A DNA stretch of 64,000 nt from Theionarchaea archaeon (GTDB lineage: Archaea; Methanobacteriota_B; Thermococci; Methanofastidiosales; SZ-28-30), in contig JACVGT010000011.1 in assembly GCA_018992685.1 (NCBI GenBank), positions 160,001-224,000 of the forward strand. The letters run 5' to 3'. The position numbers were made by a program, and so were the translations under genes. The first letter of the stretch is position 1, and every line of letters begins with the position of its first letter. This document shows, piece by piece, positions 20,369-34,023 of the stretch. The notes beneath the pieces are model-generated. The model made no database searches. It saw only the letters and a list, made by a program, of their open reading frames with translations, and was not told the origin of the DNA.

Positions 20369-20999
20369 TTCTCAGACAAAGAAGAGAGAATTGAAGAAAG
20401 TTGCCCCCTCCCTGTACTACTGTACTCCAGATAGGCTGAAACGGTACCCCGCTGCATTGTGTTTCCAGAAGAGAAAAGTCAAAAAATACCGCCTTCAGCA
20501 GAGACAGAAGCATGTGGGTTACATCCTCATGTGGTACAGGATCGAAAATCACGCAGACAAGAACCGTAAAATCGTGCACCGCATGATCGAGAAATCGTTG
20601 GGATTCCCTGTTGCCCGCTCATTGATCGCCTTCCCCTATATACACTATGAGTCAGATATGCCCTTCCTATCTCCCCAGAGGATTTTCACCCGTGCCCAGA
20701 GCTTGGATATTAATATGTCCAGGGTTGGTGTCCTCACCCCCCTCGGGAAGACTCATGAACGCTTGCGAGAAAGAGCAGAGCACTATATGAGAAGCAAGTA
20801 CGAACATCTCATACGACGGGTCTTGAAAGCTCCTCATGACAGGAGGACACGGAGTGAGATTCGCCAGAGCTATAAGAAACTGAAGCACAAGGGAAGAACA
20901 TTATCTGCAATTCTAGGAACTGATGTAACAAAGTTGGAGAGAAAGACATATACTATCATCTGGAAGTGGGAAAAAATAGGACAGACACAAAAAAAATAA
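20349..20999 (+). CDS. Basic hypothetical protein, possible PaaX/ChrB-like (Cas2-like fold) domain
   Basis: GAGGTG RBS; overlaps tgtA end; ILMWYRI...RKIVHRMI...ARSLIAFP pattern; Lys/Arg rich. Confidence 0.55.
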   Translation: MPYVILDSQTKKRELKKVAPSLYYCTPDRLKRYPAALCFQKRKVKKYRLQQRQKHVGYILMWYRIENHADKNRKIVHRMIEKSLGFPVARSLIAFPYIHYESDMPFLSPQRIFTRAQSLDINMSRVGVLTPLGKTHERLRERAEHYMRSKYEHLIRRVLKAPHDRRTRSEIRQSYKKLKHKGRTLSAILGTDVTKLERKTYTIIWKWEKIGQTQKK

Positions 21000-21188
21000 A
21001 TGGAAAATTTTTGAGATTTTTATTTGCAAATGTGATATAAATCGGCGATCTGAAACTTATTTTTTATTAAAATCGATGAAGCTGCCTGTCCTGTTGATTT
21101 ATTCTTTTTTTATGCAATATTTGAAGTTTTGCGAGTGCAGCGAAAAGATTTTATAAACGGTAAAAGATCAAGGCGGGAGGTGATACAC

Positions 21189-21362
21189 ATGATACTGGAA
21201 TGCCCCATCTGTGATGCAACGATCACAATAAACAATCCCAAGGAAGGAGCCATTGTGGTATGCGAGGAATGTGATACAGAGTTCGAGCTTGTTCAGTTCG
21301 ATGATGAATGGGATCTCTTGGAAGTTGGAGAAGAAGACTGGGAAGAGGAAGAGGATTTCTGA
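21189..21362 (+). CDS. LysW-like zinc-ribbon acidic protein, copy 1
   Basis: 57 aa; CPIC...CEEC...ELV...EEDWEEEEDF; GGAGGTG RBS; own TATA. Confidence 0.8.
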   Translation: MILECPICDATITINNPKEGAIVVCEECDTEFELVQFDDEWDLLEVGEEDWEEEEDF

Positions 21363-21792
21363 TTTATCTTCCTTGACTTTTTTTATTTTCATGCATGGAG
21401 TTAGCTTCAAATCATTGCTTCTTAATTTTTGAATATCCTGATGAGTACAGACTTCTCAAGAAGACACGAATTGCTGAGTGGATTCTTGTGGGAAGACTAT
21501 GAGACGCTCTCTGTGAACTCTGTGTCTTGTGAATGCGGGCAGGGCGCACGCTGATGCTGTGAAAGCTTTTGATGGAATAATAGGACAGACACCGGGTAAC
21601 TTAGAATGACGAGAAAGAGGAGATTATGAGGTAGCTCCATATTGAGTGACATTCTGTAATTTATTTTTTCATTTTTATTATCCATGGTGCCGATAAGAAG
21701 GGTTAAATCCATCTTTTGACGTGTAACACCACGAGGAAATCAATAGAAAAGATTTTATAAACGGGCTAATCAACGCCACCGAGGTGTTCTAC

Positions 21793-21966
21793 ATGATGTT
21801 GGAGTGTCCAATTTGTGACGCCGCTATCAACGTGAAGAATCCACAAGAAGGAGATATCGTTACCTGCAAGGAATGCGATACAGAGTTCGAGCTTGTTCAG
21901 TTCGATGATGAATGGGATCTCTTAGAAGTGGGAGAGGAAGACTGGGAAGAGGATAAAGATCTCTAA
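21793..21966 (+). CDS. LysW-like zinc-ribbon acidic protein, copy 2
   Basis: 57 aa; CPIC...CKEC...EEDWEEDKDL; GAGGTG RBS; own TATA. Confidence 0.8.
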   Translation: MMLECPICDAAINVKNPQEGDIVTCKECDTEFELVQFDDEWDLLEVGEEDWEEDKDL

Positions 21967-22060
21967 TCTGTCTTCCTTCTTTTATTTTTGTTCTTCTATC
22001 GAGAAAGGATTGCCCAGGCTGGAGGTCAGTGTCAATTGCATCTGGCTGAAAAGCAGATGA

Positions 22061-23407
22061 TCATGCCATTCTTCTTCTGTACAGTGCTGCAATTATCAAA
22101 GTTATTGAAAGTCCTGCTATTCCAGCTATCCAGTATGGATTGATCCATTCTCTGCCTTTTTCTGGTGAGGATACTTTTGTCGGAACAGGAGACACAGAAG
22201 AAGGGGTGATTTCTCGTGGGGAAGAAGATTCAGGAGGTTCAGGGCTGGGCGTGTCAGGAGGTACGTAGCCAGGCACACCATAACAGTGGACAATCCCATC
22301 CACCGATCCGATGTAGAGGGCACCTCCTGCAATTGCAGGGGAAGATTCGGCAATTTCTCCTGTTTCCATAAGCCAAACTAGCTCACCGGTCTCCCCTTCA
22401 AGACAATATACGTATCCATCATGAGACCCGATGTATACCTTCCCATCGACTGCAGCAGGAGATGAGTCGATATCGTCGCCTGTTTCATAGGACCACACTA
22501 GCTCGCCACTATCACTATCGAGACAATATACAAAGTTATCCCCTGATCCAATATACACGTTCCCATTCATTACCGCGGGTGAGGAATACACAATTTCCTC
22601 TCCAGTATCAAACACCCAGACCAATTCCCCGGTATATGCATCAAAACAATAGAAATAGGAGTCACAGCAAGGATACACATACGAGCCAAAATATACTTTA
22701 CTTCCGTAGACTGTGGGAGAGGAACGCACTCTGACATAGTGTTCTCCCATTGAGTAAGACCAGAGAAGCTGGCCTGTATCTGCTGAGAGGCAATAGACGA
22801 TAGTGTCTCGAGCACCTACAAAAACTCTTCCATCATAAACAGCAGGAGAGGAAGCGATCCATACTCCCGTCTCATAGGCCCAGAGGACTTCTCCCGTATC
22901 TGCTGAAAGGCAATATACCTTTGTATCCCCAGACCCTACGTATACTTCTCCTTCCACTACAACAGGTGAAGTCCACACTGCCTGACCAGTTCTGTATGTC
23001 CAGACTGCCTCTCCTGTCTTCGCATCAAGACAGTACACCGAATGGTCATTCGACCCAATGTACACCTTTCCATTGCTCACAGCAGGAGAAGATACCACTT
23101 CACCTTCTGTCTGGTATGTCCAGACTGCCTCTCCTGTCTTCGCATCAAGACAGTACACCGAATGGTCATTCGACCCAATGTACACCTTTCCATTGCTCAC
23201 AGCAGGAGAAGATGCCACAGCACCGCCCGTTTGATACGTCCACAGCTCCTCCAATTTGTCAGGCAGGCTACACTGAGAATATCCTGTGTGTACAGCATTC
23301 AACCTGAACATGGGCCAATCACAGAATGTCTGAGACATGCACCATGAACTGGCATATCCAGCACACAATACCAGTACCAGGACACTGACTCCGCATTTCC
23401 ATTTCAT
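22061..23407 (-). CDS. Secreted PQQ-type (BamB-like) beta-propeller protein with C-terminal TM anchor
   Basis: Signal peptide; WPMFR; about eight SSPAV..G.VYIGS.D..VYCLD..TGE.VW repeats; Pro/Ser linker; TM plus RRR. Confidence 0.9.
   Translation of the reverse strand: MKWKCGVSVLVLVLCAGYASSWCMSQTFCDWPMFRLNAVHTGYSQCSLPDKLEELWTYQTGGAVASSPAVSNGKVYIGSNDHSVYCLDAKTGEAVWTYQTEGEVVSSPAVSNGKVYIGSNDHSVYCLDAKTGEAVWTYRTGQAVWTSPVVVEGEVYVGSGDTKVYCLSADTGEVLWAYETGVWIASSPAVYDGRVFVGARDTIVYCLSADTGQLLWSYSMGEHYVRVRSSPTVYGSKVYFGSYVYPCCDSYFYCFDAYTGELVWVFDTGEEIVYSSPAVMNGNVYIGSGDNFVYCLDSDSGELVWSYETGDDIDSSPAAVDGKVYIGSHDGYVYCLEGETGELVWLMETGEIAESSPAIAGGALYIGSVDGIVHCYGVPGYVPPDTPSPEPPESSSPREITPSSVSPVPTKVSSPEKGREWINPYWIAGIAGLSITLIIAALYRRRMA
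22994..23213. repeat. Perfect 100-bp direct repeat with 120-bp period inside the beta-propeller gene
   Basis: 22994-23093 is identical to 23114-23213. Confidence 0.95.
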
Positions 23408-23816
23408 AGTATCGCCTTCTGTCTGCTGATAGATGGCATAATTTGGGCTCTATTTAAACCTTTTGTGGGGTCAGTGCAATGGGAAGATCGTGAGCATAGG
23501 TCATCAATTCAGGCTGCCCAGGGTTACCCCAGTGTTCTATCATTGCTGGTCCTCCCGATTTTTCAGTTGACGGTGGATAATTCCATTTCGATTAGTTTCA
23601 AACAGCAGGAAAACTCAGAGTCCTGGATTGTTGATTGTACTCTTGAACTGGAACCTACCATTCTTCGAGGCAGGAAGACCTCCGTCTCTTGTGTATCCAC
23701 CGAGTCTCAGATGTTTAAAAGAACGTATGAAGAGGGAAATTGACTCTCTTGAGTCTAGGAAGGGCAGAAAGCATGCTTCGTTGAGTGCATCTGTCCAGAA
23801 TACCTGCACACAATGA

Positions 23817-24884
23817 CTATTCCTTCCTTTCTGTGCGCACGTTGTAGACGATCCACCACACTCCACATGAGAGAGCTATTGATAACACTATCGACGTGAT
23901 TAGTGCCCTCTCCACGAAGGCATATGGGTTCTCCGCGTACGATACGTGGAATATCACCTTCTGGATCAGGGAACCGGTCCTCATCACGTACTCTTCATGA
24001 ACGATTCTGTCCTGTTCAGAATGAATGTGGGGATACAACCTGTTGGTCGATCTTGTAATGCCTGCAGCTGGTATTCCTTTTCTGTTGAAAGGGACATGAT
24101 CACTAAATAGAGGGCCAATAGAGGGGGTTCCCTCATCTGATAGTCCATATATGAGCTGTGCAAGCCAGAATGAGGCAAACCTGTGAGATCTCAAGCAGGA
24201 AATGTGAAGATCTTCCCCTACACCCACTGTATCAACGCAGATTACGCCTTTCAGATTCGTCTGAAGAGCATCTGCCATGTCGGTGGACTCTGTCAATCCC
24301 TTTTCTTCGCCCGTAAAGAAGGTGATCATGAGCGTGTTCTTGGGAGATTCAGGGATATCCAATTCCAGCAGGATAGCCACTCCTGAAGCATTGTCATCTG
24401 CACCCGGGGAGTCCTCCACCGTGTCAAAGTGAGCACAGAAGAGAAAGGATTCCTCTTTTTCTCCCTGGATTGTGGCTGTGACGTTTGTGTGGTATTCTGG
24501 TGATAATCCCTTCTGGTGTAATATTCTTTCAATGTAGGAAGCAGCCTCCTCTTCTTTTTCACTGGAGTAGGGCCTGGGGCCAACAGCTGTGGAAAGATAA
24601 TCTACGTGGATGAGCGGATCCCCTGTGTACGACAAACTGTAGTCAGGTGCAAACCATGAGGTTAGAGGGGAGATGGTCAGAAAGAAGAAGACAAATGAAA
24701 AAGTTGTTACAAACAAGAGAGATTCAGTCCATTTCTTATGTGCAACAACGTTGAAAAACCACAGTAAAACCAGAAAGAGTATCAGTTCATGGACCATATA
24801 GATGTAATATGGGAAGGGATACCCAACAACAAGTGAGGAGACAATGGTGGCCAGCAACACTGAGAGGGCTAAGAAAGGTTTCAC
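23817..24884 (-). CDS. Membrane-bound M28 family metallopeptidase
   Basis: CAHFDT, GADDNASG, GEEKGL, SDH, IHSEQD; flanking TMs. Confidence 0.88.
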   Translation of the reverse strand: MKPFLALSVLLATIVSSLVVGYPFPYYIYMVHELILFLVLLWFFNVVAHKKWTESLLFVTTFSFVFFFLTISPLTSWFAPDYSLSYTGDPLIHVDYLSTAVGPRPYSSEKEEEAASYIERILHQKGLSPEYHTNVTATIQGEKEESFLFCAHFDTVEDSPGADDNASGVAILLELDIPESPKNTLMITFFTGEEKGLTESTDMADALQTNLKGVICVDTVGVGEDLHISCLRSHRFASFWLAQLIYGLSDEGTPSIGPLFSDHVPFNRKGIPAAGITRSTNRLYPHIHSEQDRIVHEEYVMRTGSLIQKVIFHVSYAENPYAFVERALITSIVLSIALSCGVWWIVYNVRTERKE

Positions 24885-25134
24885 AAGAGGAAATTGAGGA
24901 GATACCTTTTATGGCTTGCGCCCTTGGATTCTCGTCTGCCGGTACATGGTGGATACTTTCGCAAGATGCTTCCTCTCTTACTCGATTCGGGGCACTGGTT
25001 CCTGAAACTGACATCCTGAAGGTTCCTATCCTATCTGCTCGACCGTCACGCCACAAGAAAGTCTCGACACCGTAAGAAGCCTATTATCTCAGGGACCCTG
25101 TTTCTTGTGGAAACTGCGTAGACTTGAGATGGAT

Positions 25135-26037
25135 TCAGGTCAAAAACAGGAGCAGTACTGTCAGTGAACCGATGCTGGCTATGGTAGATGTCAGAACTGC
25201 ACTGGAAACAAATCCGGGTTCTGCATCGAATTCAATGGCAATCAAGACAGAATTAATGGCCGTAGGCATGGAACATTCAACAATCAAGATACTCCGCAAT
25301 ACACCCTCTATTCCCATTAAACTGGTGAGAGCAACGCCGATAAGAGGAGATAGCCCCAATCGCAAGATATTAACCAGTAAGAGTGATTTGAAATCTTTGT
25401 TCATATGCGTATTGCAGAGTTGAATACCCAGAAGCACCATGCACACGGGGATGGCGGCAGATCCCAGGAGGCCGACTGATTTTCCCACGAAAGAGGGAAC
25501 TTCTACATGGAGTGAGCTGATGAGAGATGCTATTACTACTGCATATATGAGTGGGATTTTGAATACGTTCAGAAAGGACTCCTTGAAGCTGGACTTACCC
25601 CTAGATGCGATGTACACGGCAAGCGTGTACATGATGATTGATCCATACATCATGTAGGCCAGCGCACTGATTGTTCCTTCTTCACCAAAGGCAAAGGTGC
25701 ACAAGGGGACGCCATAGTTGCCTGAGTTGGTAAAGAGGACTGACAGGAGGAATGCACTCTCTACAGTCTTCTCCAGATTGAGAAGTCTACAGGCTGTGAG
25801 GGATATGATGTAGAGGATTCCCGTAAACCCCACCACGAAGACTCCAATAACTGCTAGGCTGCCCAGGACATCTCTGTCTATGAACGTAGTGAAGACTAGC
25901 GAAGGAAGGAGGATATAGATACTGAGGTGGGCTATGGAACGTGTGTCCGGGTTCTTGGTCTTACCCAGCAGGACACCAATCCCAAATATAAGGAATATGG
26001 GGAAGAGTACGTCCATGAGCACCTGGATGAGGTCCAT
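25135..26037 (-). CDS. AEC (auxin efflux carrier) family transporter
   Basis: NSGNYGVPL; MPTA; about ten TM. Confidence 0.9.
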   Translation of the reverse strand: MDLIQVLMDVLFPIFLIFGIGVLLGKTKNPDTRSIAHLSIYILLPSLVFTTFIDRDVLGSLAVIGVFVVGFTGILYIISLTACRLLNLEKTVESAFLLSVLFTNSGNYGVPLCTFAFGEEGTISALAYMMYGSIIMYTLAVYIASRGKSSFKESFLNVFKIPLIYAVVIASLISSLHVEVPSFVGKSVGLLGSAAIPVCMVLLGIQLCNTHMNKDFKSLLLVNILRLGLSPLIGVALTSLMGIEGVLRSILIVECSMPTAINSVLIAIEFDAEPGFVSSAVLTSTIASIGSLTVLLLFLT

Positions 26038-26367
26038 GGGTAGGCGTTGTGATGGGTCTTAAAAAGATTGTGGGTATTCACTCCATCTTGCATGGTAAAG
26101 GACTGAGTCGTACCATCCGTATAATCAGAAATCAGGGAACGACAAACGGTAGTAGCGAATGGATCAGTCTTTACAAACAGCAAGTTGAAGTCAGAGATCC
26201 GTACGTATGCGTCCGGACATGAATCTTCATTTTATGTCCTTTTATTTTTTATTATCATTTCCATTATTCTTAAAAAGAAATTTTCATCATCATTCTAAAT
26301 GTCGTGTGCGGTTTTTTTATTAATTATCCACCGACTTTGAAATCGGGTCGCGAAATTCGCAGAGTCC

Positions 26368-26382
26368 GCAAGCTTTATAAAG
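26368..26382 (+). promoter_or_regulatory. BRE/TATA promoter with no convincing downstream ORF
   Basis: GCAAGC-TTTATAAA matches other promoters in the window; palindrome GCGAA-A-TTCGC at 26350-26360 just upstream. Confidence 0.6.
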
Positions 26383-26404
26383 AATGGAGCCCTCTACTTA
26401 TTAT

Positions 26405-26540
26405 AACTGGAAGGTACTGGTTGGAAGGGTAAATCCCCCCGAGGCTCAACAAACCATTGCCCCCATAACCTTCTTCTCAAACACTGAGGCCTCTCAGCGG
26501 AGAGCCCATATTCCAACTCTCCTTCCGACTTCTGCTTTTC
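26405..26540 (+). ncRNA. Candidate structured ncRNA of unknown family (about 120-135 nt)
   Basis: Nested pairings GGAAGG 26409-14/CCTTCC 26521-26, GTTGGAA 26420-26/TTCCAAC 26511-17, GGGT/GCCC, GAGGC-TCA/TGA-G-GCCTC; starts about 30 nt after TATA; pyrimidine tail; strand not certain. Confidence 0.5.
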
Positions 26541-26581
26541 ACGAGATACTCTCTCTGCTGGTGGGTAGAAGGTCATGATCC

Positions 26582-27058
26582 TCATTCTCCATCAAAGGTG
26601 AACAGATCCACGATCCTCCTGGCAGGCTCAAATGCTTTGCAAAATCGTCTCAGACCTGGTACTGCTTCAATCTGTCCCCTTTCATCCCTGTAGGCATGCA
26701 GTCCATCAGGGAATACCAGGTCTCTGCGATCCTTATTGGCGAATGCTACAATGACACTGACAATATACACTGTATTCTCCTGGGGATCGGGAAGGTTCAC
26801 CGTTTTATCATAAGATATATCAGTGATATCCACACCGTCAACAGTTTCGGAACGCCTCTCAGTTTCTTTCACTCGCGCCACCTTTCCACTTCGTGGAATT
26901 ATGATATCCTTTTCACCCTGTCGGATGACCACATCATGAGGGGTTAAATTTATGAGGACGGGTTTTTTCTTTTCAAAAAGGCTCTTGACTTTCTGAAAGA
27001 CCTTTGAAAAAAGGTTGAAAGCCTGCTTTGTGCTATCTGAAAACAAATCCCAACTCAT
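26582..27058 (-). CDS. NLTPH-motif protein, possible Crn4-like ring nuclease
   Basis: LINLTPHDV...IPRSGKVARV...LPDPQENTVYIVS...RRDLVFP...RDERGQI; TATA spacing favours a leaderless ATG at 27058. Confidence 0.6.
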   Translation of the reverse strand: MSWDLFSDSTKQAFNLFSKVFQKVKSLFEKKKPVLINLTPHDVVIRQGEKDIIIPRSGKVARVKETERRSETVDGVDITDISYDKTVNLPDPQENTVYIVSVIVAFANKDRRDLVFPDGLHAYRDERGQIEAVPGLRRFCKAFEPARRIVDLFTFDGE

Positions 27059-27195
27059 GACGAGATGTTCTTCCATGACATCTTAAAGGTTTCCCACCGT
27101 CCTTTCTCCCTCCTGACAAGGGGTTCACATCCCCTCTCACCGACCTGAAGTGGATCAGCACCCAACCCTTTTATGTGACGACTCAAACACTGATC

Positions 27196-27738
27196 ATGCT
27201 CACGCAAGAACAAGGCCAGTACCTGGTAAATCTAGCCAGGAAAAATATTGCTCACTTTCTCAAGACTGGAACAGCACTTCCTATCAACGGCTTTCCCACC
27301 ATTCTCAACGAGAAAAGAGGTGTATTCGTCACTCTCAAGAAGAACGAGCATCTCAGGGGCTGCATCGGGTATCCAGAGCCTGTCTACCCTTTAATCGAGG
27401 CACTCTTGGATTCTTCGATTTCTGCAGCGGTGAGAGATCCCCGGTTTCCACCTGTTACCGCCTCTGAAATGGAGACTGTTACTGTGGAGGTTACTGTCCT
27501 GACAGAACCGACCCCCATCAAGCCAGATCCTGCCAACGTCACTATTGGAAAGGACGGTCTCATGATAGAACAGGGTATGTTCAAGGGCATCCTTCTCCCC
27601 CAGGTACCCGTGGAATGGGAGTGGGATTCTGAAGAATTCCTTTGCCAGGCGTGTATCAAGGCAGGACTCCCTCCAGATTGTTGGCTGGACAAGAAAACTG
27701 TCGTCTACGCATTCCAGGGTCAGATCTTCTCTGAGTGA
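27196..27738 (+). CDS. AMMECR1 domain protein
   Basis: GVFVTL, LRGCIG, DPRFPP, GILLPQV, KAGL. Confidence 0.92.
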   Translation: MLTQEQGQYLVNLARKNIAHFLKTGTALPINGFPTILNEKRGVFVTLKKNEHLRGCIGYPEPVYPLIEALLDSSISAAVRDPRFPPVTASEMETVTVEVTVLTEPTPIKPDPANVTIGKDGLMIEQGMFKGILLPQVPVEWEWDSEEFLCQACIKAGLPPDCWLDKKTVVYAFQGQIFSE

Positions 27739-27835
27739 GAGTTCATATTTTCCGGAAAGCGTAGGCTTTGCATGCTTTTCTTACATTACCCAAAGTGAAG
27801 AGAAACCTTTATATACAGGGATACCCAACGTACAT

Positions 27836-29197
27836 ATGCACACCCCTGAAGACATTGTTGACTTTTGTGAAGAAAGAAACATCCGGCTCATAAAATTACA
27901 GTTTGCTGACCTCGTGGGAGAACTGAAACAATTCGAGGTTCCTCTCAAGATCTTTCCCAAGGCACTTGAAGAAGGACTGAGCTTTGACGGTTCATCCGTC
28001 ACGGGGATGAACCCCGTGGAGGAAAGTGACCTGGTGGTAAAACCTGATGTGTCCACGTTTATTGAACTGCCTCTGGCAAGACAGAATGGAAAAGAGAAAG
28101 ACAGACCCCGGGTGGCCCGTGTCTTGTGCAACATCTATGAACCTCAAAATGGCAGCCTCACGCGACATCCAGGTGATCCTCGGTTTGTTTTACAGAAGAA
28201 TTTAGAATATGCTCTGAAAAAGGGATTCATCTACAATGTAGGCCCTGAGCTGGAATTCTTCATGTTCGAGCAGGATGGAGTCGCCAGGGTAACAGACTCA
28301 GGCGGGTACTTTGCTTCACCCTTCAGAGACCGTGGTGAGCGTGTCAGGGAGCAGATTATTGGGATTCTCTCCGAGTTGGGCAACCAGACAGGGATTGAGG
28401 CCGAGTATTCCCACCATGAGGCAGCCTTCTCGCAGCATGAGATTGATCTCAACTACGCAGAAGCACTGAAGATGGCAGATTTCACCATGTTATATAAGTG
28501 GATTGTGAAATTCATAGCAGAGCAGAGCGACATGGTGGCTACCTTCATGCCGAAGCCCATTGAAGGTATCAATGGCTCTGGCATGCATATCCACCAGAGT
28601 CTGGCAAATGAGAAAGGGGATAACCTGTTCTTTGATTCCCGGAATGACTACGGGCTGTCAGATATTGCCAGGCAGTTTATTGCAGGACAGTTGAAATATG
28701 CACGTGAAATATGCGGCATTCTGGCCCAGTGGGTGAACTCATATAAGCGGCTTATCCCAAATTTTGAGGCCCCCACCTATGTCTCCTGGTCTGTAGTGAA
28801 CAGGTCTGCTCTCATCAGGGTACCTTTGTCGTTGAAGAATAGAGAGAAAGCAGCAAGAGCAGAAATTCGGTGTGCAGATCCTGCGTGCAATCCGTACCTG
28901 GTCTTCGCTGTGCTGCTGAGGGCAGGGCTCAAAGGCATTGAGGAAGGATTGGAACTTGAAAGTCCCCAGAAAGACAATTTATACAACTTAGGATATCAAG
29001 AGCGGAAAAAACGGGGCATCATAGATTTGCCGGGAAGCCTGGGAGAAGCCATCAGAGAAGTTGAAAAGTCAGAGCTTGTCAGACAGGTACTGGGAGGGGT
29101 TATCATGGATAACTGGATCGCCCTGAAGGCGGAGGAATGGGCCAACTACAGAAAGAAAGTCCATCCATATGAGTTAGAGGTATACTACCACCTCTGA
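27836..29197 (+). CDS. glnA: Glutamine synthetase type I
   Basis: FDGSS, GPELEFF, HHE...QHEI, FMPKP..GINGSGMH, NRSALIRVP, NPYL. Confidence 0.95.
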   Translation: MHTPEDIVDFCEERNIRLIKLQFADLVGELKQFEVPLKIFPKALEEGLSFDGSSVTGMNPVEESDLVVKPDVSTFIELPLARQNGKEKDRPRVARVLCNIYEPQNGSLTRHPGDPRFVLQKNLEYALKKGFIYNVGPELEFFMFEQDGVARVTDSGGYFASPFRDRGERVREQIIGILSELGNQTGIEAEYSHHEAAFSQHEIDLNYAEALKMADFTMLYKWIVKFIAEQSDMVATFMPKPIEGINGSGMHIHQSLANEKGDNLFFDSRNDYGLSDIARQFIAGQLKYAREICGILAQWVNSYKRLIPNFEAPTYVSWSVVNRSALIRVPLSLKNREKAARAEIRCADPACNPYLVFAVLLRAGLKGIEEGLELESPQKDNLYNLGYQERKKRGIIDLPGSLGEAIREVEKSELVRQVLGGVIMDNWIALKAEEWANYRKKVHPYELEVYYHL

Positions 29198-29351
29198 TCT
29201 TCTTTTTTCGGATCTTCCTTTATCAATGCTTCCCACTCCTTCTTTCTGGTTTACACATTGTAGGACAGACCCAACCCTTAAGAAGTATCTACTCTTATGA
29301 CTAACAGAGATCAAAATCGAGAATTTCCTTTGAAATAACGGAGGTGATGGA

Positions 29352-29852
29352 ATGAGTCATAATATCCGCTGTGAAACGGCACAGAGTCAACCAGAAGAGT
29401 GCGAATGCAGATGCAATGGGGAGTACCATGGCATACACAGACGGGACCTACCTGAGAGAGCTCAATTCGTGAACAGGAAAATGGGTGGAGGACTGGGAAG
29501 GATCATTCAGACCTTGAACAGGAGAAAGTTGGTGATGGCGTGCGGCATCCAGATAGAAATGGTTCTCTTCATTGGAATCGAAGATGAAGAGGGCATTCTG
29601 GATGGAGCTGGAAGGAAATGGGCAGTATACAGTAAGTGTCGATATCTGGTTGAAGGGAAATGCAGGAAGTTAGGAAAGACTCCCCGCAATACGGCAGAAT
29701 GCAAACCTGTCATCGTTGCGCCAACCTCATCAGGGATAGCTCAAATAGACCGCCTGAGCCTTGTGGAGATAAGCATCATCTGCTTTCTGTCGGCCAGGAG
29801 GGTATGGGAGTTCGAAAGCCCTGTGGAATCCATAGTGGTAGGCACAGAGTAA
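29352..29852 (+). CDS. Cys-rich hypothetical protein
   Basis: GGAGGTG RBS; N-term C-x9-CxCxCxGxxHG metal-binding-like motif. Confidence 0.6.
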   Translation: MSHNIRCETAQSQPEECECRCNGEYHGIHRRDLPERAQFVNRKMGGGLGRIIQTLNRRKLVMACGIQIEMVLFIGIEDEEGILDGAGRKWAVYSKCRYLVEGKCRKLGKTPRNTAECKPVIVAPTSSGIAQIDRLSLVEISIICFLSARRVWEFESPVESIVVGTE

Positions 29853-29891
29853 CAGAACCACCTTTAAAAGTGTTCCATGCAACAGGGAGTG

Positions 29892-31070
29892 ATGCATGTT
29901 TTTGGGTTTGTCGTTAATCCCATTGCTGGAATGGGTGGACGTGTTGGACTGAAAGGAACAGATAATGTGGTAGAAGAGGCAATTGAAAGAGGTGCAGAGC
30001 CTGTCTCAGGAGAAAGGGCACTTCGTATGCTGAAAGTGCTAGTAAGGGCACGCAATGAGTGCAAGAGAGAACTTCCCATTACCTGGGTTACTGTCTCCGG
30101 GAACATGGGAGCAGCCCTTCTCGAGGAGGCAGGCTTTTCTTCACAGGAGTACACAGTTCTCCATGAATGTGCGGACATCACGACGAGGGAAGATACAAAG
30201 AAGGCTTGCAGAGAATTTCAGACCCATAATGCAGAATTAATAGTATTCTGTGGAGGGGATGGGACAGCACGAGACATATTTGAGGTGGTAGATGCTGAAA
30301 CTCCTGTTGTGGGCATCCCGGCAGGAGTAAAAATGCATTCTGGCGTCTTTGGGGTCAATCCAGAAAGTGTAGCTGAAGTGATTCTCGCCTTTGTAGAGGG
30401 GAATTTGGGACTCAGCGAAGTGGAGATTATGGATTTGGATGAGATAGCATATCGTAAAGGAGAATGGAGAATAGACCTGCATGGTATTGCTGTTACTCCA
30501 TTTGAAGATAGTTATATACAGAGTGCCAAGATGATGGTTCGCGGGCCTTCAGAAGAAGAATTGAAAAAGGAAATTGCAGAGTATCTGCTAGAATTGATGG
30601 AGGAGGACACCTTATATATCCTGGGTTCGGGGAGCACTCTGAGAACTGTCGGTGAGGAACTGGGCATCGATAAGACTCTCCTGGGGATAGATGCTGTGGT
30701 CAATAGGACGTTGATCGGGAAGGACGTCAATGAAAAGGAATTGCTACGCCTCCTTGGAGAGTATGATCGTTCCACACTGATTGTCAGTCCCATTGGAGCA
30801 CAGGGATTCATACTGGGTAGAGGAAACCAGCAGTTAAGTCCAGCAGTTATAAAGAAAATTGGCATCGACAGAATCATGGTGGTTGCCACCCCCACCAAGC
30901 TCCAACAAACAGAAGCTTTGAGAGTGGACACCAATGATTCAGACCTGGATAGAGCATTTTCAGAGAAGAAATACTTCAGAGTTATTACAGGATACCACAC
31001 CATGGCTGTACGGAATGTCGAGGTTCAGGTAGCCAGGAGATCTCTTGAGAAACGTGGTGGGATTTTCTGA
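29892..31070 (+). CDS. ATP-NAD kinase family protein
   Basis: VNPIAGMGGRVGLKGTD, GGDGTARD, GVKMHSGVF, GRGNQQ. Confidence 0.9.
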   Translation: MHVFGFVVNPIAGMGGRVGLKGTDNVVEEAIERGAEPVSGERALRMLKVLVRARNECKRELPITWVTVSGNMGAALLEEAGFSSQEYTVLHECADITTREDTKKACREFQTHNAELIVFCGGDGTARDIFEVVDAETPVVGIPAGVKMHSGVFGVNPESVAEVILAFVEGNLGLSEVEIMDLDEIAYRKGEWRIDLHGIAVTPFEDSYIQSAKMMVRGPSEEELKKEIAEYLLELMEEDTLYILGSGSTLRTVGEELGIDKTLLGIDAVVNRTLIGKDVNEKELLRLLGEYDRSTLIVSPIGAQGFILGRGNQQLSPAVIKKIGIDRIMVVATPTKLQQTEALRVDTNDSDLDRAFSEKKYFRVITGYHTMAVRNVEVQVARRSLEKRGGIF

Positions 31071-31239
31071 ATCCTGGTCGTCGCCCTGTTCTTCTTTCGT
31101 GTTCAATGCTACCATTCTCGTGAACTCGCCATCTGATCTAAGACGACACCCCTTGTGAGGACGGTTCAGTTTCGCGCGCCACATGCAACCTTAAATACCT
31201 GTGTGTTGTAAGGTGTATAACTTATGCAGGAGGAATAAA

Positions 31240-32283
31240 ATGAAAGACACAATGCTGGCTGTCTTCAAAACCAACCCCGAGCCAGGAGGAACAGAAATCA
31301 GAGAGGTGCCAGTCCCTATCGTGGGAGCACGTGATGTTCTCATCAAGGTCAAAGCATGTTCTATTTGTGGAACAGATGTGCACATCTATAACTGGGACCA
31401 GTGGGCGCAGAAACGGATCACTCCTCCGCTCCTGTATGGTCATGAGTTTGGAGGAGAAGTCGTTGAAATCGGAAGTGATGTCACGACTGTTCAGGTGGGT
31501 GATTATGTCTCAGCAGAATCCCATATTTTCTGTGGTTCATGTTACAACTGTAGAATGCAACAGCGCCACATCTGCTCAAACCTGCAGATCCTGGGTGTGG
31601 ACACGTCAGGCATTTTTGCTGAATATGCTCGGATACCTGCCCAAAATATATGGAAGAACGATCCTGATTTGCCCATTGAGTATGCGAGTGTACAGGACCC
31701 ACTGGGAAATGCGGTGCATACCGTATTCGCGGCAGACGTCCCGGGGAGAAATGTGGTTATCCTGGGATGTGGGCCCATCGGGGTTTTCGCCACTGCAATC
31801 TGCCACACGATTGGTGCAGCTCAGATTTTTGCCACCGAGGCGAAGTATAAGTACCGGGCAGACATTGCAGAAAAAGTCGGTGCAGATCAAGTTTTCTTTG
31901 GTGATGTGGATGTGCATGCTGGAGTGATGGAAGCTACCGATGGAGTGGGTGCAGATGTGGTTTTGGAATTCACAGGAAGTCCTGCTGCTGTCAATCAGGG
32001 ACTCAAACTCCTGAGACCAGGAGGGACTATAGTGCTGCTGGGAGTATTTTCAAAAGAATTCACCACTGATCTCACTGATAACGTGGTTTTCAAGTATGTT
32101 ACGGTCCAGGGAATTACCGGGCGCCTGGTCTGGGATACCTGGTACAGAATGCGGGGCTTATTCAAAGCGGGGCTCAACGTGGATCCCGTGATAACCCATA
32201 CCTTTAAGTTTGAGGAGTTTTTCGAAGCAATGGAGGTCATGAGATCGGGAAACTCCGGAAAAGTCGTTCTATATATGGAATAA
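31240..32283 (+). CDS. tdh: L-threonine 3-dehydrogenase
   Basis: SICGTDVHIY.WD.WA, GHE, structural zinc Cys, GCGPIG; operon with kbl. Confidence 0.93.
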   Translation: MKDTMLAVFKTNPEPGGTEIREVPVPIVGARDVLIKVKACSICGTDVHIYNWDQWAQKRITPPLLYGHEFGGEVVEIGSDVTTVQVGDYVSAESHIFCGSCYNCRMQQRHICSNLQILGVDTSGIFAEYARIPAQNIWKNDPDLPIEYASVQDPLGNAVHTVFAADVPGRNVVILGCGPIGVFATAICHTIGAAQIFATEAKYKYRADIAEKVGADQVFFGDVDVHAGVMEATDGVGADVVLEFTGSPAAVNQGLKLLRPGGTIVLLGVFSKEFTTDLTDNVVFKYVTVQGITGRLVWDTWYRMRGLFKAGLNVDPVITHTFKFEEFFEAMEVMRSGNSGKVVLYME

Positions 32284-32296
32284 AGGAGGATATCCT

Positions 32297-33484
32297 ATGA
32301 AAAGAAATCCAACAGTATTCTTGAGAGAAGAATACCAGAACCTAGTAGAACAAAACTTAAACTGGAAATTACGAGTTCTGGAAGGACCTTCTGCTCCCCT
32401 CTCTGTGGTAGAAGGAAAGAAGGTTATTATGCTGTGTTCCAACAACTACCTGAATTTGTCCAACCATCCCAACCTGAAAAAAGCTGCCAAGGAGATTATT
32501 GACACACACGGCGCGGGATCGGGGTCAGTGCGGGCCATCGCGGGGACCATGGACATTCATATGGAGGTGGAGAAAGCTCTGGCGAGATTCAAGAGAACCG
32601 AAGCCGCTCTGGTATACCAGACAGGGTTTGCAGCTAATTCAGGGCTCATTCCCCAGCTGGTGGATAAGGGAGATTTAATCATATCCGATGAGTTGAACCA
32701 CGGGTCCATCATTGATGGAGTTCGGCTCTCTGCAGCTGACAGAGCGATTTTCAAACACAGGGACTATAGCAATTTGGAGGACGTGTTGAACGAGGCTGAA
32801 AAGGAAGCCTACAGACGAATATTGATCATCACGGACGGTGTTTTCTCCATGGATGGAGATGTTGCCAGAATGGATGCAATAGTGAACCTGGCAGAAGAAC
32901 ATGGTGCCATGACCTATGTGGATGATGCTCACGGGGAAGGAGTTCTTGGCGAGAACGGCAGAGGAATTGGCGCTCACTACAATCTGGAAGGGAAGATCCA
33001 TGTGGAAATGGGGACCTTCTCAAAGGCATATGGTGTGGTGGGTGGCCTCATTGCAGGAAGCCGTGATTTGGTGAATTTCGCCTTCAATAAGTCCAGGACC
33101 TGGCTATTGTCTGCCTCTCATCCTCCCCAAGTGGCTGCAGCTCAACTGGCAGCCATTCAGATATTGGAATCTGAGCCCGAGCACTGGAAAAGACTGTGGA
33201 ATAATACCACATATTTCAAGAAAGAGTTGAAGAGCATGGGCTTCGACACCGGTCAATCAGAGACTCCCATTACTCCTGTTATTGTGGGGGAATCCAGCGT
33301 TGCCAAAGCATTGTCTGACAAACTTTTCGAGAACGGTGTATTCGCGTTACCCATTGTGTTCCCCATGGTGGCCAAGGACAAGGCCCGCATCAGGACCATG
33401 ATGAATGCAGGTCTAACCGATGAGGACTTGAACGACGCTCTGCGAGCCTTTGAAACGTGTGGAAAAGAATTGAAGATCGTGTAA
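32297..33484 (+). CDS. kbl: Glycine C-acetyltransferase (2-amino-3-ketobutyrate CoA ligase)
   Basis: CSNNYL, SDELNHGSIIDG, DGVFSMDG, DDAHG, TFSKA; follows tdh. Confidence 0.88.
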   Translation: MKRNPTVFLREEYQNLVEQNLNWKLRVLEGPSAPLSVVEGKKVIMLCSNNYLNLSNHPNLKKAAKEIIDTHGAGSGSVRAIAGTMDIHMEVEKALARFKRTEAALVYQTGFAANSGLIPQLVDKGDLIISDELNHGSIIDGVRLSAADRAIFKHRDYSNLEDVLNEAEKEAYRRILIITDGVFSMDGDVARMDAIVNLAEEHGAMTYVDDAHGEGVLGENGRGIGAHYNLEGKIHVEMGTFSKAYGVVGGLIAGSRDLVNFAFNKSRTWLLSASHPPQVAAAQLAAIQILESEPEHWKRLWNNTTYFKKELKSMGFDTGQSETPITPVIVGESSVAKALSDKLFENGVFALPIVFPMVAKDKARIRTMMNAGLTDEDLNDALRAFETCGKELKIV

Positions 33485-33651
33485 CTGATCTCTTTTTTCT
33501 CTTTTGTTCAGGTTCCTGTTTATGCTCAAAGCGAACAGAATTCAGGATAACACAGTTATTTGGGAGACGTGCCGGCAAATAGCAGCTTTTGAGGGCCATA
33601 ACATTTTTAAGGATAAAGGTCTTGGATTTCATACTCCAACGACGTGATATA

Positions 33652-34023
33652 ATGGTCTTCCTGGCAAGAATCATGAGCCCGAACCCGGGCTCAGAGGAGT
33701 TAGAATCACTTATTAGAGACATGGAACCTAGAAGGGTCACCGGCGTGCTCAGAGTTACATTTGATGCATGTTCTGGATTTATTGCTCTTGAGAATGGCAG
33801 TATTGTGGACGGATATGAAATATACAGAGATGGACTTCTGGTGAGGGACAGGCAGGCACGCCACATTGTGGAGCGGTTCAGGGGAGAGCCTGGCAGGATT
33901 GACGTCTACCCTGTGAACTCTCATGTCCTTCAGACGTTTCTTTCTACACTGGAAGATGATCTTCCTCAGAATTTCAGGAGCTGGTTTCAATCTCTGTTCA
34001 ACTCCTGCAATGACACTAATTAA
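33652..34023 (+). CDS. Hypothetical protein (DUF2226/PATAN-like)
   Basis: TGVLRV...GFIALENG.IV...IDVY pattern. Confidence 0.55.
   Translation: MVFLARIMSPNPGSEELESLIRDMEPRRVTGVLRVTFDACSGFIALENGSIVDGYEIYRDGLLVRDRQARHIVERFRGEPGRIDVYPVNSHVLQTFLSTLEDDLPQNFRSWFQSLFNSCNDTN

What the first reader, a model, noticed from the sequence alone, without database searches (positions are those of the whole stretch)
26582..27058. Orphan NLTPH-family protein (candidate Crn4-like cyclic-oligonucleotide nuclease) next to the RNA
Seen: NLTPH, P.SG..AR, LP.P......IVS, R.DL..P and RD..G.I motifs, an extra amphipathic N-terminal helix, and a stop 55 nt from the structured RNA. From memory (needs checking), this motif set marks a small family found in viruses and beside type III CRISPR loci, matching the ring nuclease Crn4. 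No cas10 or array is in the window. Inference: a stand-alone or captured anti-defence signal-degrading enzyme that may form a protein-plus-RNA module with the neighbouring ncRNA. This is my best candidate for an undescribed system here.
Basis: partly seen in the sequence, partly recalled or inferred. Interest (0 to 1): 0.7.

Follow-up and report, generated by a model that had tools for sequence, protein, structure and literature searches.

The report
Orphan archaeal Crn4 ring nuclease gene
This small gene in an uncultured sediment archaeon encodes a genuine relative of Crn4, a recently described enzyme that destroys the cyclic-adenylate alarm signals of CRISPR defence, but it sits alone among ordinary housekeeping genes and is not tied to the RNA gene beside it.

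Summary
Its only matches among solved structures are Crn4b, Crn4a and Crn4 H15A. The AlphaFold model's only significant Foldseek hits are the seven Crn4 chains. The catalytic His and Arg are invariant in the 22-row alignment A1, and a homodimer model passes its controls.

It is a member of the published Crn4 family (Nat Commun 2025), not an undescribed system. It belongs to a separate Theionarchaea clade with a short Crn4b-like core, a 36-residue cationic amphipathic N-terminal extension and a C-terminal tail. It is under strong purifying selection (dN/dS about 0.08).

It is an orphan. The 91%-complete genome has two type I CRISPR-Cas loci but no detected Cas10, Csm3, Cmr4, SMODS or mCpol. Its relatives in other Theionarchaea lie in different housekeeping neighbourhoods.

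The protein-plus-RNA module is not supported. The RNA has three copies per genome in this genus, and one genome keeps the syntenic copy with no Crn4 gene found. Other Crn4 loci lack the RNA.

Side finding: metatranscriptome contigs from three studies show that this RNA is excised at a bulge-helix-bulge motif into a 77-nt circle.

The parts
26582..27058 (-). CDS of a Crn4-family (Crn4b-like) ring nuclease homologue, 158 aa. In 158-aa numbering: N-terminal amphipathic extension residues 1-33, Crn4 core about 34-140, C-terminal tail 141-158. Predicted catalytic His41 and Arg124, with Thr39 behind the His. In the 164-aa ORF numbering these are H47, R130 and T45.
27082..27087 (-). TATA-like box (TTTAAG), about 27 nt upstream of the ATG at 27058 and conserved in the G001 orthologous locus. 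It implies a leaderless or near-leaderless mRNA and argues against the ATG at 27076 as the start. This is an inference, not a mapped promoter.
   Evidence: family start
26405..26535 (+). Neighbour, not part of a module: precursor of a small RNA, convergent with the Crn4 gene. A TATA-like TTTATAAA lies at 26374-26381 and a T-run at 26536-26539. It folds into a helix-bulge-helix-bulge-helix (BHB) motif: outer helix about 26419-26426 with 26511-26518, central 4 bp 26427-26430 with 26504-26507, and 3-nt bulges at 26431-26433 and 26508-26510.
26433..26509 (+). Neighbour: 77-nt circular RNA excised from that precursor. The junction joins 26509 to 26433, with 2 nt of ambiguity. It is C-rich (31 C of 77), weakly structured, and not a tRNA.

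Best explanation
The gene encodes a working member of the Crn4 ring-nuclease family, with a short Crn4b-like core.

Mechanism, by homology (inferred from the Crn4 paper, not assayed here). Two subunits form a homodimer in which each beta-hairpin arm wraps the partner. A cyclic oligoadenylate binds in the central cavity. His41 of one subunit acts as general acid, and Arg124 of the other holds the scissile phosphate (H47 and R130 in ORF numbering). Cleavage is metal-independent and yields linear products with 2',3'-cyclic phosphate ends. The short core predicts cA4 and cA3 as substrates rather than cA6.

What is specific to this copy (shown). It belongs to a monophyletic Theionarchaea clade. The clade adds a conserved 36-residue cationic amphipathic N-terminal extension and a roughly 20-residue C-terminal tail. 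It replaces the cA6-stacking Arg92 of Crn4a with Val or Ile. The gene is chromosomal, single-copy, under strong purifying selection, and placed among housekeeping genes away from any CRISPR locus.

Likely origin and role (inferred). It was probably captured from an archaeal virus or other mobile element. A Methanofastidiosa virus carries a 140-aa homologue with a similar N-terminal extension. It most likely now serves the host by clearing cOA signals whose source is not in this assembly. That source could be a type III or other cOA system on unbinned or accessory DNA, or on invading elements.

The adjacent RNA is an independent gene.
For: Family membership:
- phmmer against PDB gives 3 of 3 hits as Crn4: Crn4b 9r7b at 1.6e-08, Crn4a 9sma at 3.1e-08, Crn4 H15A 9qs9 at 8.1e-07.
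- The A1 profile gives 3.1e-16 and 1.8e-15 against the same chains.
- PADLOC Unk_01 matches at 1.6e-23. The Crn4 paper names Unk01 as the earlier label of this family.
- The AF2 core has block-mean pLDDT 89-97 over about residues 41-140. The 7 Foldseek hits at E <= 0.001 are all Crn4 chains. The best is 9r7b at 3.5e-11, TM-score 0.77 on the target and 35% identity. The next hit has E = 0.65.

Catalytic residues and dimer:
- H47 aligns with the mutated H15A position, R130 with R112 and T45 with T13 (alignments).
- H47 and R130 are invariant in the 22 rows of A1, and T45 is kept in 21 of 22.
- Homodimer model: ipSAE 0.71, best of 3 controls 0.00. The runs share at least 81% of contacts and partner pLDDT is at least 77. 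That mark was reached by 20 of 30 proteins solved as pairs of one chain and 1 of 23 solved as single chains. The hairpin tip (79-88) touches 140-146, 121, 103 and 51 of the partner.

Selection and clade:
- dN 0.084, dS 1.029 against G001.
- The Theionarchaeal rows form one clade (6 rows, SH-aLRT 100) in the half of the tree that holds 14 of the 16 viral rows. The Actinomycetota-dominated clade is separate.

Orphan status:
- The gene is single-copy in the genome.
- Neighbours are an AEC transporter, AMMECR1-like, glutamine-synthetase-like and M28-like ORFs. Only the AEC transporter was checked against Pfam. The other three are my reading of the translations.
- Other Theionarchaeal loci sit beside TrkH and CBS genes, beside AlaRS, or beside a PRiA4-like gene.
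- No Cas10, Csm3, Cmr4, SMODS or mCpol was found.

Viral link:
- 29 IMG/VR contigs and 21 of 50,697 phage records carry relatives.
- One is Caudoviricetes sp. vir521, host given as Methanofastidiosa: 33% identity over 125 columns, starting in the N-terminal extension.
Against: - All mechanism is by homology.
- No producer of cOA was found in this genome or in the two congeners. The expected substrate therefore has no known source, which leaves the in-vivo role open.
- Arg92 of Crn4a, which stacks on an adenine of cA6, is Val here. It is Val or Ile in 19 of the 20 Theionarchaeal-clade rows and Asn in the other.
- The dimer pass may reflect likeness to the solved Crn4 dimers (the tool's own caveat).
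- The N-terminal helix is modelled at low confidence (block-mean pLDDT 49-68), so membrane tethering is only a guess.
- No metatranscriptome contig covered the ORF in the 4 RNA runs laid, so expression is not shown.
- The family is rare in the lineage: 3 of 133 genomes of the phylum, and 2 of 3 of the genus. That fits an accessory gene better than a core function.
Confidence: 0.75

Rival explanations
1. One reading: the Crn4-like protein and the neighbouring structured RNA form one protein-plus-RNA module. For example, the protein might bind or cut the RNA, or the RNA might regulate the protein.
For: - The two genes lie 55-70 nt apart in G000 and in the orthologous locus of G001.
- The RNA turns out to be circular and the protein is a 'ring' nuclease.
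- Crn4a cuts a linear poly(A) 12-mer weakly in vitro (paper).
- The circle has several short A-rich stretches.
Against: - The genes are convergent, and the RNA has its own TATA-like box and T-run.
- The covariance model finds 3 copies in each of G000, G001 and G002, 9 in all. Only the 2 orthologous copies adjoin a Crn4 gene.
- G002 keeps the syntenic AEC-transporter-plus-RNA pair with no Crn4 next to it (tblastn gave nothing better than E = 3.6). No Crn4 was found anywhere in that genome, which is 84% complete.
- Six further Theionarchaeal Crn4 loci (L031-L036) have no copy by nhmmer at E <= 1e-3 or by the covariance model at E <= 1. Four of them have 3.5 kb or more beyond the stop.
- Crn4 substrates are rings of 3-6 adenylates, not a 77-nt mixed-sequence circle.
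Confidence: 0.04
2. The fold is the same but the substrate differs. This CRISPR-independent clade would degrade a non-CRISPR adenylate signal of the cell itself. That could be c-di-AMP (formally cA2), or it could trim A-rich RNA ends. It would then act as a housekeeping phosphodiesterase rather than an immune regulator.
For: - No cOA synthase was detected, but a diadenylate cyclase (DAC, PF02457, 74.8 bits, above the cut-off) is encoded at C15:113757-114119.
- The gene has chromosomal housekeeping neighbours and is under strong purifying selection.
- Arg92 is replaced, and the clade sits on a long stem branch (0.81).
- In the sections of the paper that I read, c-di-AMP is not among the substrates tested.
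Against: - DAC is almost universal: the control search rang in 11 of 14 reference genomes. The Crn4 gene is in only 3 of 133 genomes of the phylum, so it cannot be the general c-di-AMP phosphodiesterase of this lineage.
- The catalytic dyad and the cavity-lining motifs are conserved with cOA-cleaving Crn4.
- Poly(A) cleavage by Crn4a was slow and of doubtful relevance, according to the authors.
Confidence: 0.12
3. The protein is a non-catalytic remnant or sponge. It would be a decaying former viral anti-CRISPR gene, or a protein that only binds cOA.
For: - The context is orphan and the distribution patchy.
- GC content is slightly lower (44.2%) than its neighbours (46.6-50.2%).
Against: - dN/dS is about 0.08.
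- The frame is intact in G000, G001 and 5 complete metagenome copies.
- His and Arg are invariant in the 22 rows of A1.
Confidence: 0.05

Closest known systems
Crn4b (PDB 9r7b; Hyphomicrobiales MBK8772583; Chi et al., Nat Commun 2025, PMC12830947)
   Same: It is the best sequence and fold match: phmmer 1.6e-08 in one contiguous alignment of query residues 40-146, and Foldseek 3.5e-11 with target TM-score 0.77 and 35% identity. It shares the short hairpin, the NLTPH His and the RD Arg, and a predicted dimer.
   Different: The protein here has 36 extra N-terminal residues before the NLTPH motif and a roughly 20-residue C-terminal tail. It is archaeal. It is not in a CRISPR locus, whereas the paper's cellular Crn4b copies were found inside type III loci, mostly with Can2.
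Crn4a (PDB 9sma and 9qs9; Actinomyces procaprae WP_136192672)
   Same: Same family and fold (profile E 3.1e-16; Foldseek 4.6e-09). T13, H15, S91 and R112 are all matched.
   Different: Crn4a has a longer hairpin, so the middle of the alignment breaks into two stretches. Its R92 is Val here. Crn4a is linked to type III-D, Csm6-2 and CorA. The Actinomycetota-dominated clade (my label) is separate in the tree.
Phage and plasmid Crn4 homologues with N-terminal extensions (phrog_30542, phrog_21731; e.g. Caudoviricetes sp. vir521 of Methanofastidiosa, BK063668.1)
   Same: phrog_30542 matches at 7.3e-21 and the match starts at query residue 19, inside the N-terminal helix. The vir521 protein (140 aa) aligns from residue 16 at 33% identity. 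The paper notes N-terminal extensions of unknown function in some phage and plasmid orthologues.
   Different: The gene here is chromosomal, in a region syntenic between two genomes of the genus, with no phage genes noticed nearby. The paper's extensions are 60-80 aa, and this one is 36.
AcrIII-1 / Crn2 (DUF1874) and Crn1, Crn3
   Same: They work alike: small dimeric, metal-independent cOA phosphodiesterases with a catalytic His acting as general acid (comparison made by the authors).
   Different: The folds are unrelated. Foldseek lists no such structure among its significant hits.

Membership tests
Crn4 ring nuclease family (PADLOC Unk_01) | Significant sequence similarity to characterised Crn4a and Crn4b | tested here: met
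   E values 1.6e-08, 3.1e-08 and 8.1e-07, and these are the only 3 PDB sequences hit; profile E values 3.1e-16 and 1.8e-15. Unk_01 at 1.6e-23.
Crn4 ring nuclease family (PADLOC Unk_01) | The Crn4 fold, which the authors report as unlike any other solved structure | tested here: met
   The AF2 core has block-mean pLDDT 89-97. All 7 Foldseek hits at E <= 0.001 are Crn4 chains, and the next hit has E = 0.65. The structure is predicted, not solved.
Crn4 ring nuclease family (PADLOC Unk_01) | Catalytic His (H15) and Arg (R112), with Thr (T13) behind the His | tested here: met
   H47, R130 and T45 (ORF numbering) align with them. H and R are invariant and T is kept in 21 of 22 rows.
Crn4 ring nuclease family (PADLOC Unk_01) | Homodimer with exchanged beta-hairpin arms and a composite active site | tested here: met
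   Model only. ipSAE is 0.71 against 0.00 for the best of 3 controls, and the hairpin tip (79-88) contacts the partner's core. The pass may stem from likeness to the solved Crn4 dimers. The His-to-Arg distance across subunits could not be measured.
Crn4 ring nuclease family (PADLOC Unk_01) | Cleavage of cA3, cA4 or cA6 to linear products with 2',3'-cyclic phosphate ends | not testable with these tools
   This needs purified protein and HPLC as in the paper.
Crn4 ring nuclease family (PADLOC Unk_01) | cA6-contacting side chains S91 and R92 of Crn4a | tested here: not met
   S107 is kept, but R92 corresponds to V108. It is Val or Ile in 19 of the 20 Theionarchaeal-clade rows and Asn in the other. 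The paper says most contacts are through the main chain, so this bears on substrate preference and not on membership.
Crn4b subfamily | Short hairpin, lacking the roughly 10-residue segment of Crn4a | tested here: met
   The alignment with Crn4b is contiguous, while the alignment with Crn4a is split around the hairpin. The best fold match is Crn4b.
CRISPR-associated ring nuclease (context criterion) | Encoded in or beside a type III CRISPR-Cas locus, or beside or fused to a cOA-activated effector | tested here: not met
   - No array on contig C3.
- The two cas operons by the arrays hold type I genes: Cas3, Cas5b, Cas7 and Cas1b on C26, and Cas3' and Cas1 on C7.
- No Cas10, Csm3, Cmr4, SMODS or mCpol was detected in G000.
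- SAVED and Cas_APE2256 searches were silent, but so were their controls.
- Csx1_HEPN was not found.
- The genome is 91% complete.
- Cas10 models can miss: G004 has Cmr4 at 139 bits, but PF22335 did not ring there.
Protein-plus-RNA module with the neighbouring RNA | Co-occurrence of the two genes across genomes and loci | tested here: not met
   Of 9 RNA copies, 2 lie beside a Crn4 gene. G002 has the RNA with no Crn4 found. None of the other 6 Theionarchaeal Crn4 loci has the RNA.
BHB-excised archaeal circular RNA (the neighbour) | Helix, 3-nt bulge, 4-bp helix, 3-nt bulge, helix, with a circular junction inside the bulges | tested here: met
   RNAalifold predicts the motif without being given it. 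94.9% of cells are paired, against 32-63% when the partners are slid, and 4 outer-helix pairs have compensatory changes. A back-joint from 26509 to 26433 appears in 107-nt RNA contigs of 3 runs from 3 studies. That the splicing endonuclease and a ligase do this is inferred.

The most novel reading that the evidence does not exclude
Theionarchaea keep a type III-independent Crn4 clade, possibly tethered to the membrane. It would work on an adenylate ring that does not come from the cell's own CRISPR system. Candidates are the cell's own c-di-AMP (a DAC gene is present) or cOA made by invading elements. That would make it a host-side 'signal firewall' rather than a CRISPR reset switch. A still bolder version, which the co-occurrence data make unlikely, is that it opens the neighbouring 77-nt circular RNA.
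Probability: 0.12. Interest if true: 0.7.

Novelty: new member of a known kind. Interest (0 to 1): 0.35.

Why it matters
Crn4 was described from 22 CRISPR-linked bacterial genes plus about 20 phage and plasmid copies. Three points here go beyond that.

- **A much larger family.** The profile search finds 9,425 cluster representatives at E <= 1e-3.
- **An archaeal chromosomal clade.** It has its own conserved N- and C-terminal additions.
- **No detectable signal source.** The genomes that carry it have no cOA synthase that I could find.

This gives a concrete case for asking what ring nucleases do outside type III loci, and what the N-terminal extensions noted in the paper are for.

In practical terms the finding should be filed as known biology, not as a new system.

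The side finding may be the more original item in this stretch. It is a genus-specific family of three stand-alone genes, each with a BHB motif, whose product is a 77-nt C-rich circular RNA seen in metatranscriptomes of three studies.

Tried and rejected
**Searches and analyses that led nowhere**
- Pfam and NCBIfam on the protein gave no family. The only Pfam line was cNMP_binding at E = 0.032, 14.6 bits, below its cut-off of 27.5.
- Rfam on the RNA: 0 matches at gathering score over 20000-34000. There were 3 chance-level matches at E <= 10 over 26000-27300.
- Single-sequence MFE of the 291-nt intergenic stretch is not distinctive: z = -1.59 on the + strand and -0.76 on the - strand. The structure showed only in the comparative analysis.
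- Pfam on 10 longer Crn4-containing ORFs from other loci (186-1028 aa), to name fusion partners: 0 families at E <= 0.001.
- NCBIfam on 10 ORFs upstream of the C26 array found no cas genes there.
- ARAGORN on the circle, to test for a permuted tRNA: 0 genes.
- No RNA contig lay on the Crn4 ORF in the 4 RNA runs laid. This says nothing either way about expression.
- The SAVED and Cas_APE2256 searches are uninformative because their controls rang nowhere.
- TIGR02578 gave only two weak N-terminal HD-region matches (18.1 and 16.4 bits, cut-off 170), which I do not count as Cas10.
- ORFs near the two other RNA copies in G000 were listed but not annotated.

**Readings considered and rejected**
- The ATG at 27076 as the start codon.
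- Transcription of the RNA from the minus strand. Several G-U pairs (13-15 of 63 cells in the 7-row fold; 22 of 198 cells in the 9-row count) would become A-C mismatches there, and the TATA-like boxes and T-runs are on the + side.
- A provirus around the gene. The region is collinear with G001 over the 14 kb compared. I noticed no phage genes among the translated neighbours, but the wider window was not systematically annotated.

**Literature**
- Searches made.
- PMC12830947: I read the outline, the whole Results, the Discussion, and passages found by term.
- PMC13577387 and PMC12409355: passages only.
- All other papers: search listings only.
- Supplementary figures of the Crn4 paper (alignments, N-terminal extensions, extra substrates) were not seen. 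They may bear on the comparison of extensions and on whether c-di-AMP was tested.
- I found no paper on Crn4 in archaea with the terms, and 'archae' occurs 0 times in the main text of the Crn4 paper. That is the whole basis for 'not in print'.

**Tool availability**
Full report
**What is there**

One search lists a minus-strand ORF at 26582..27076 (164 aa). No overlapping plus-strand ORF is longer than 83 aa. An alignment of 22 homologues (A1) starts at the second Met.

A TATA-like TTTAAG at 27082-27087 (-) lies about 27 nt upstream of that ATG and is conserved in the orthologous locus of a congener. The ATG at 27076 would sit only about 6 nt after it. I infer a leaderless transcript that starts near 27058.

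The N-terminal stretch is a predicted helix at residues 15-33 of the ORF, modelled at low confidence. Its hydrophobic moment reaches 0.62 with net charge +4.

**What the protein is**

Pfam and NCBIfam have no model for it. Three other kinds of evidence identify it.

- **Sequence.** phmmer against all PDB sequences returns three sequences, all of them Crn4: Crn4b 9r7b at 1.6e-08, Crn4a 9sma at 3.1e-08 and Crn4 H15A 9qs9 at 8.1e-07. The A1 profile lifts these to 1.8e-15, 3.1e-16 and 2.2e-14.
- **Defence and phage libraries.** PADLOC's Unk_01, described as an 'unknown small protein, sometimes fused to CARF', matches at 1.6e-23. PHROGs 30542 and 21731 match at 7.3e-21 and 6.4e-18.
- **Fold.** The AlphaFold2 model built on A1 has mean pLDDT 78.4, with block means of 89-97 across the core. 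In Foldseek against the PDB, the seven hits at E <= 0.001 are all Crn4 chains. The best is 9r7b at 3.5e-11, target TM-score 0.77 and 35% identity. The eighth hit has E = 0.65.

The paper that defines the family (PMC12830947; outline, Results and Discussion read) reports the following.
- Unk01 was renamed Crn4.
- The fold is new.
- The enzyme is an arm-exchanged homodimer.
- H15 and R112 from different subunits are essential, and T13 sits behind the His.
- Crn4a cuts cA3, cA4 and cA6.
- The shorter Crn4b cuts cA4 and cA3 but not cA6.

In the alignments, ORF residue H47 sits on the mutated H15A position. R130 sits on R112, T45 on T13 and S107 on S91. R92 of Crn4a corresponds to V108.

H47 and R130 are invariant in A1, and T45 is kept in 21 of 22 rows.

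A two-copy model scored ipSAE 0.71 against 0.00 for the best of three controls. The runs share at least 81% of contacts and partner pLDDT is at least 77. That mark was reached by 20 of 30 proteins solved as pairs of one chain and 1 of 23 solved as single chains. The hairpin tip (79-88) lies on the partner's core. Because Crn4 dimers are solved, this pass shows likeness rather than independent proof.

The alignment with Crn4b is contiguous, while the one with Crn4a breaks at the hairpin. The core is therefore of the short, b type.

**How it differs from described Crn4**

Of the 123 related loci fetched, 110 gave an ORF with both motifs.
- The six complete Theionarchaeal copies all have 36 residues before the NLTPH motif, and 119-130 residues from that motif to the stop.
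- Most others have 3-22 residues before the motif.
- The short, Crn4b-like forms have about 100-110 residues from the motif to the stop. The Actinomycetota-type ORFs have about 130-150.
- A minority, several of them viral, have extensions of 81-214 residues or are fusions.

In a quick maximum-likelihood tree of 94 distinct domains, the Theionarchaeal rows form one clade (6 rows, SH-aLRT 100, stem 0.81). That clade lies in the half of the tree that holds 14 of the 16 viral rows. An Actinomycetota-dominated clade of 32 rows (99) is separate; calling it Crn4a-type is my label. The tree has few columns, many open forks and long branches, so only these two statements are taken from it.

The phage collection has relatives in 21 of 50,697 records. 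One is Caudoviricetes sp. vir521, with host given as Methanofastidiosa, a sister lineage. Its 140-aa protein is annotated phrog_30542 and aligns from residue 16 of the 158-aa protein at 33% identity.

The family as a whole is far larger than the literature suggests. The profile search found 9,425 cluster representatives at E <= 1e-3 and 5,050 at E <= 1e-10.

**Context**

The names of homologues place the organism in the Theionarchaea. The genome is 3.03 Mb in 45 contigs and 91% complete, and the gene is single-copy.

The neighbours are ordinary genes.
- An AEC-type transporter matches Pfam Mem_trans at 5e-28.
- ORFs that read as AMMECR1, glutamine synthetase and an M28-like peptidase are my reading of the translations. 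They were not checked against a library.

The region is collinear with a congener (G001) across the 14 kb compared, at 75-85% nucleotide identity over the main blocks. The orthologues have dN 0.084 and dS 1.029.

Distribution is patchy.
- The gene was found in 2 of 41 relatives with the protein query.
- It was found in 3 of 133 genomes of the phylum with the profile: G000, G001 and one genome of another family of the same class.
- It was not found in the third genome of the genus (84% complete) or in the other genus of the family.

Metagenome contigs hold six more Theionarchaeal copies at 55-65% identity. They lie in at least three other neighbourhoods: between TrkH and CBS genes, next to alanyl-tRNA synthetase, and next to a PRiA4-like gene. 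The surrounding genes are 50-85% identical to genes scattered over other contigs of this genome. In this genome the TrkH-CBS slot holds a different ORF.

**Is there a signal to degrade?**

My repeat scan found four CRISPR arrays: C7 with 61 repeats, C22 with 3, and C26 with 57 and 22. The cas genes beside them are type I. C26 has Cas1b, Cas3, Cas5b, Cas7 and Cas6. C7 has Cas3' and Cas1.

| Search in G000 | Result |
|---|---|
| Csm1 (TIGR02578) | only 18- and 16-bit HD-region matches |
| Cmr2 (TIGR02577) | none |
| Cas10 palm2 (PF22335) | none |
| SMODS | none |
| mCpol | none |
| Csx1_HEPN | none |
| SAVED, Cas_APE2256 | silent, but their controls rang nowhere |

Csm3 and Cmr4 were not found in G000, G001 or G002.

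Type III does exist in the wider lineage. G003, which lacks Crn4, has Cas10 palm2 at 112.7 bits. G004 has Cmr4 at 139 bits. PF22335 was silent in G004, so the Cas10 model can miss real systems.

My reading is that no cOA source was detected in three incomplete genomes of the genus. That is not the same as showing there is none.

A diadenylate cyclase is present. This keeps a c-di-AMP reading formally open. However, DAC is near-universal while the Crn4 gene is rare, which argues against it.

**The RNA and the module**

Rfam has nothing here, and single-sequence folding is unremarkable. Comparison changes the picture.

- **Copies.** A roughly 100-nt core (26418-26516) recurs on C15 and C23 of this genome and three times in G002. 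A covariance model built on 7 copies finds exactly 3 copies in each of G000, G001 and G002, and none in 38 other relatives.
- **Strand signals.** Four of the seven copies aligned have a TATA-like box about 25-30 nt upstream on the + strand, and this copy has one about 40 nt upstream. All have T-rich tracts shortly downstream.
- **Structure.** RNAalifold predicts, without being given it, an outer helix, a 3-nt bulge, a 4-bp helix, a 3-nt bulge and an inner helix. On 9 copies, 94.9% of cells pair, against 32-63% with slid partners. Four outer-helix pairs show compensatory changes. These 9 copies are three paralogues in three close genomes, and the alignment was fitted to the model, so the number of independent events is small.
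- **Circular junction.** 107-nt metatranscriptome contigs from three runs of three studies carry a back-joint from 26509 to 26433. A fourth 107-nt record fits the C15-type copy better but carries no listed back-joint on this stretch. A length of 107 equals 77 + 30, which is what a k = 31 assembler makes of a 77-nt circle; the k value is my recollection of Logan. Both cut sites fall after the second base of a bulge. I recall this as the pattern of the archaeal splicing endonuclease and did not check it in a paper.

The neighbour is therefore a stand-alone gene for a 77-nt circular RNA. It is C-rich, weakly structured and not a tRNA.

It does not travel with Crn4.
- Only the 2 orthologous copies of 9 are next to the gene.
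- G002 keeps the transporter-plus-RNA pair in a rearranged neighbourhood with no Crn4 beside it.
- The six other Theionarchaeal Crn4 loci have no copy by nhmmer or by the covariance model. Four of them have 3.5 kb or more beyond the stop.
- The two genes converge.

I rate the module at about 4%.

**Verdict**

- The gene is a new, archaeal, chromosomal and orphan member of the already described Crn4 family, with clade-specific terminal additions.
- The mechanism proposed above is by homology. The in-vivo role is the open point.
- 'Undescribed system' and 'protein-plus-RNA module' are not supported.
- Interest is moderate to low for the protein (0.35).
- The circular RNA next door deserves its own follow-up.

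Noticed in passing
window 26405-26535 (+), circle 26433-26509; paralogues at G000:C15:82556-82686 and G000:C23:45236-45366: A stand-alone gene family with 3 copies in each of the 3 genomes of this genus and none found in 38 other relatives. The transcript folds into a canonical bulge-helix-bulge motif. Metatranscriptome contigs from 3 studies show it as a 77-nt circular RNA. The circle is C-rich (31 C of 77), weakly structured, has no Rfam match and is not a tRNA. Its function is unknown. A sponge or antisense role against G-rich sequences is only a guess.
   Followed up: partly
G000:C26 (38 kb, GC 43.7% against about 46-47% for most other contigs): A low-GC contig carries two CRISPR arrays (57 and 22 repeats) flanking a type I-B cas operon, so it may be an accessory element. 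Contigs C36-C45 (1.5-4 kb) have similarly low GC (43-45%)..
   Followed up: partly
G000:C12:87315-88420 compared with L031:2677-3568: The slot between the TrkH and CBS-domain genes holds the Crn4-like gene in one metagenomic Theionarchaeon. In this genome it holds a different 327-residue open frame, possibly with a helix-turn-helix by eye. It looks like a variable insertion spot.
   Followed up: partly
G004:C5:16082-17050: A relative of the same order has a clear Cmr4 (139 bits), yet the Cas10 palm2 model PF22335 was silent in that genome. Either its Cas10 is divergent or the locus is incomplete. It is a caution for every 'no Cas10' statement here.
   Followed up: no
protein P0034 (243 aa): The closest representative outside the Theionarchaeal cluster matches the Crn4 profile in two stretches, so it may be a tandem-duplicated Crn4.
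   Followed up: no
window 27166-27198 (+): A TTTTAT box lies about 25-30 nt upstream of an ATG at 27196 in the AMMECR1-like ORF. That gene may also be leaderless and start at 27196 rather than at the GTG at 27175 listed. This is read from the sequence only.
   Followed up: no
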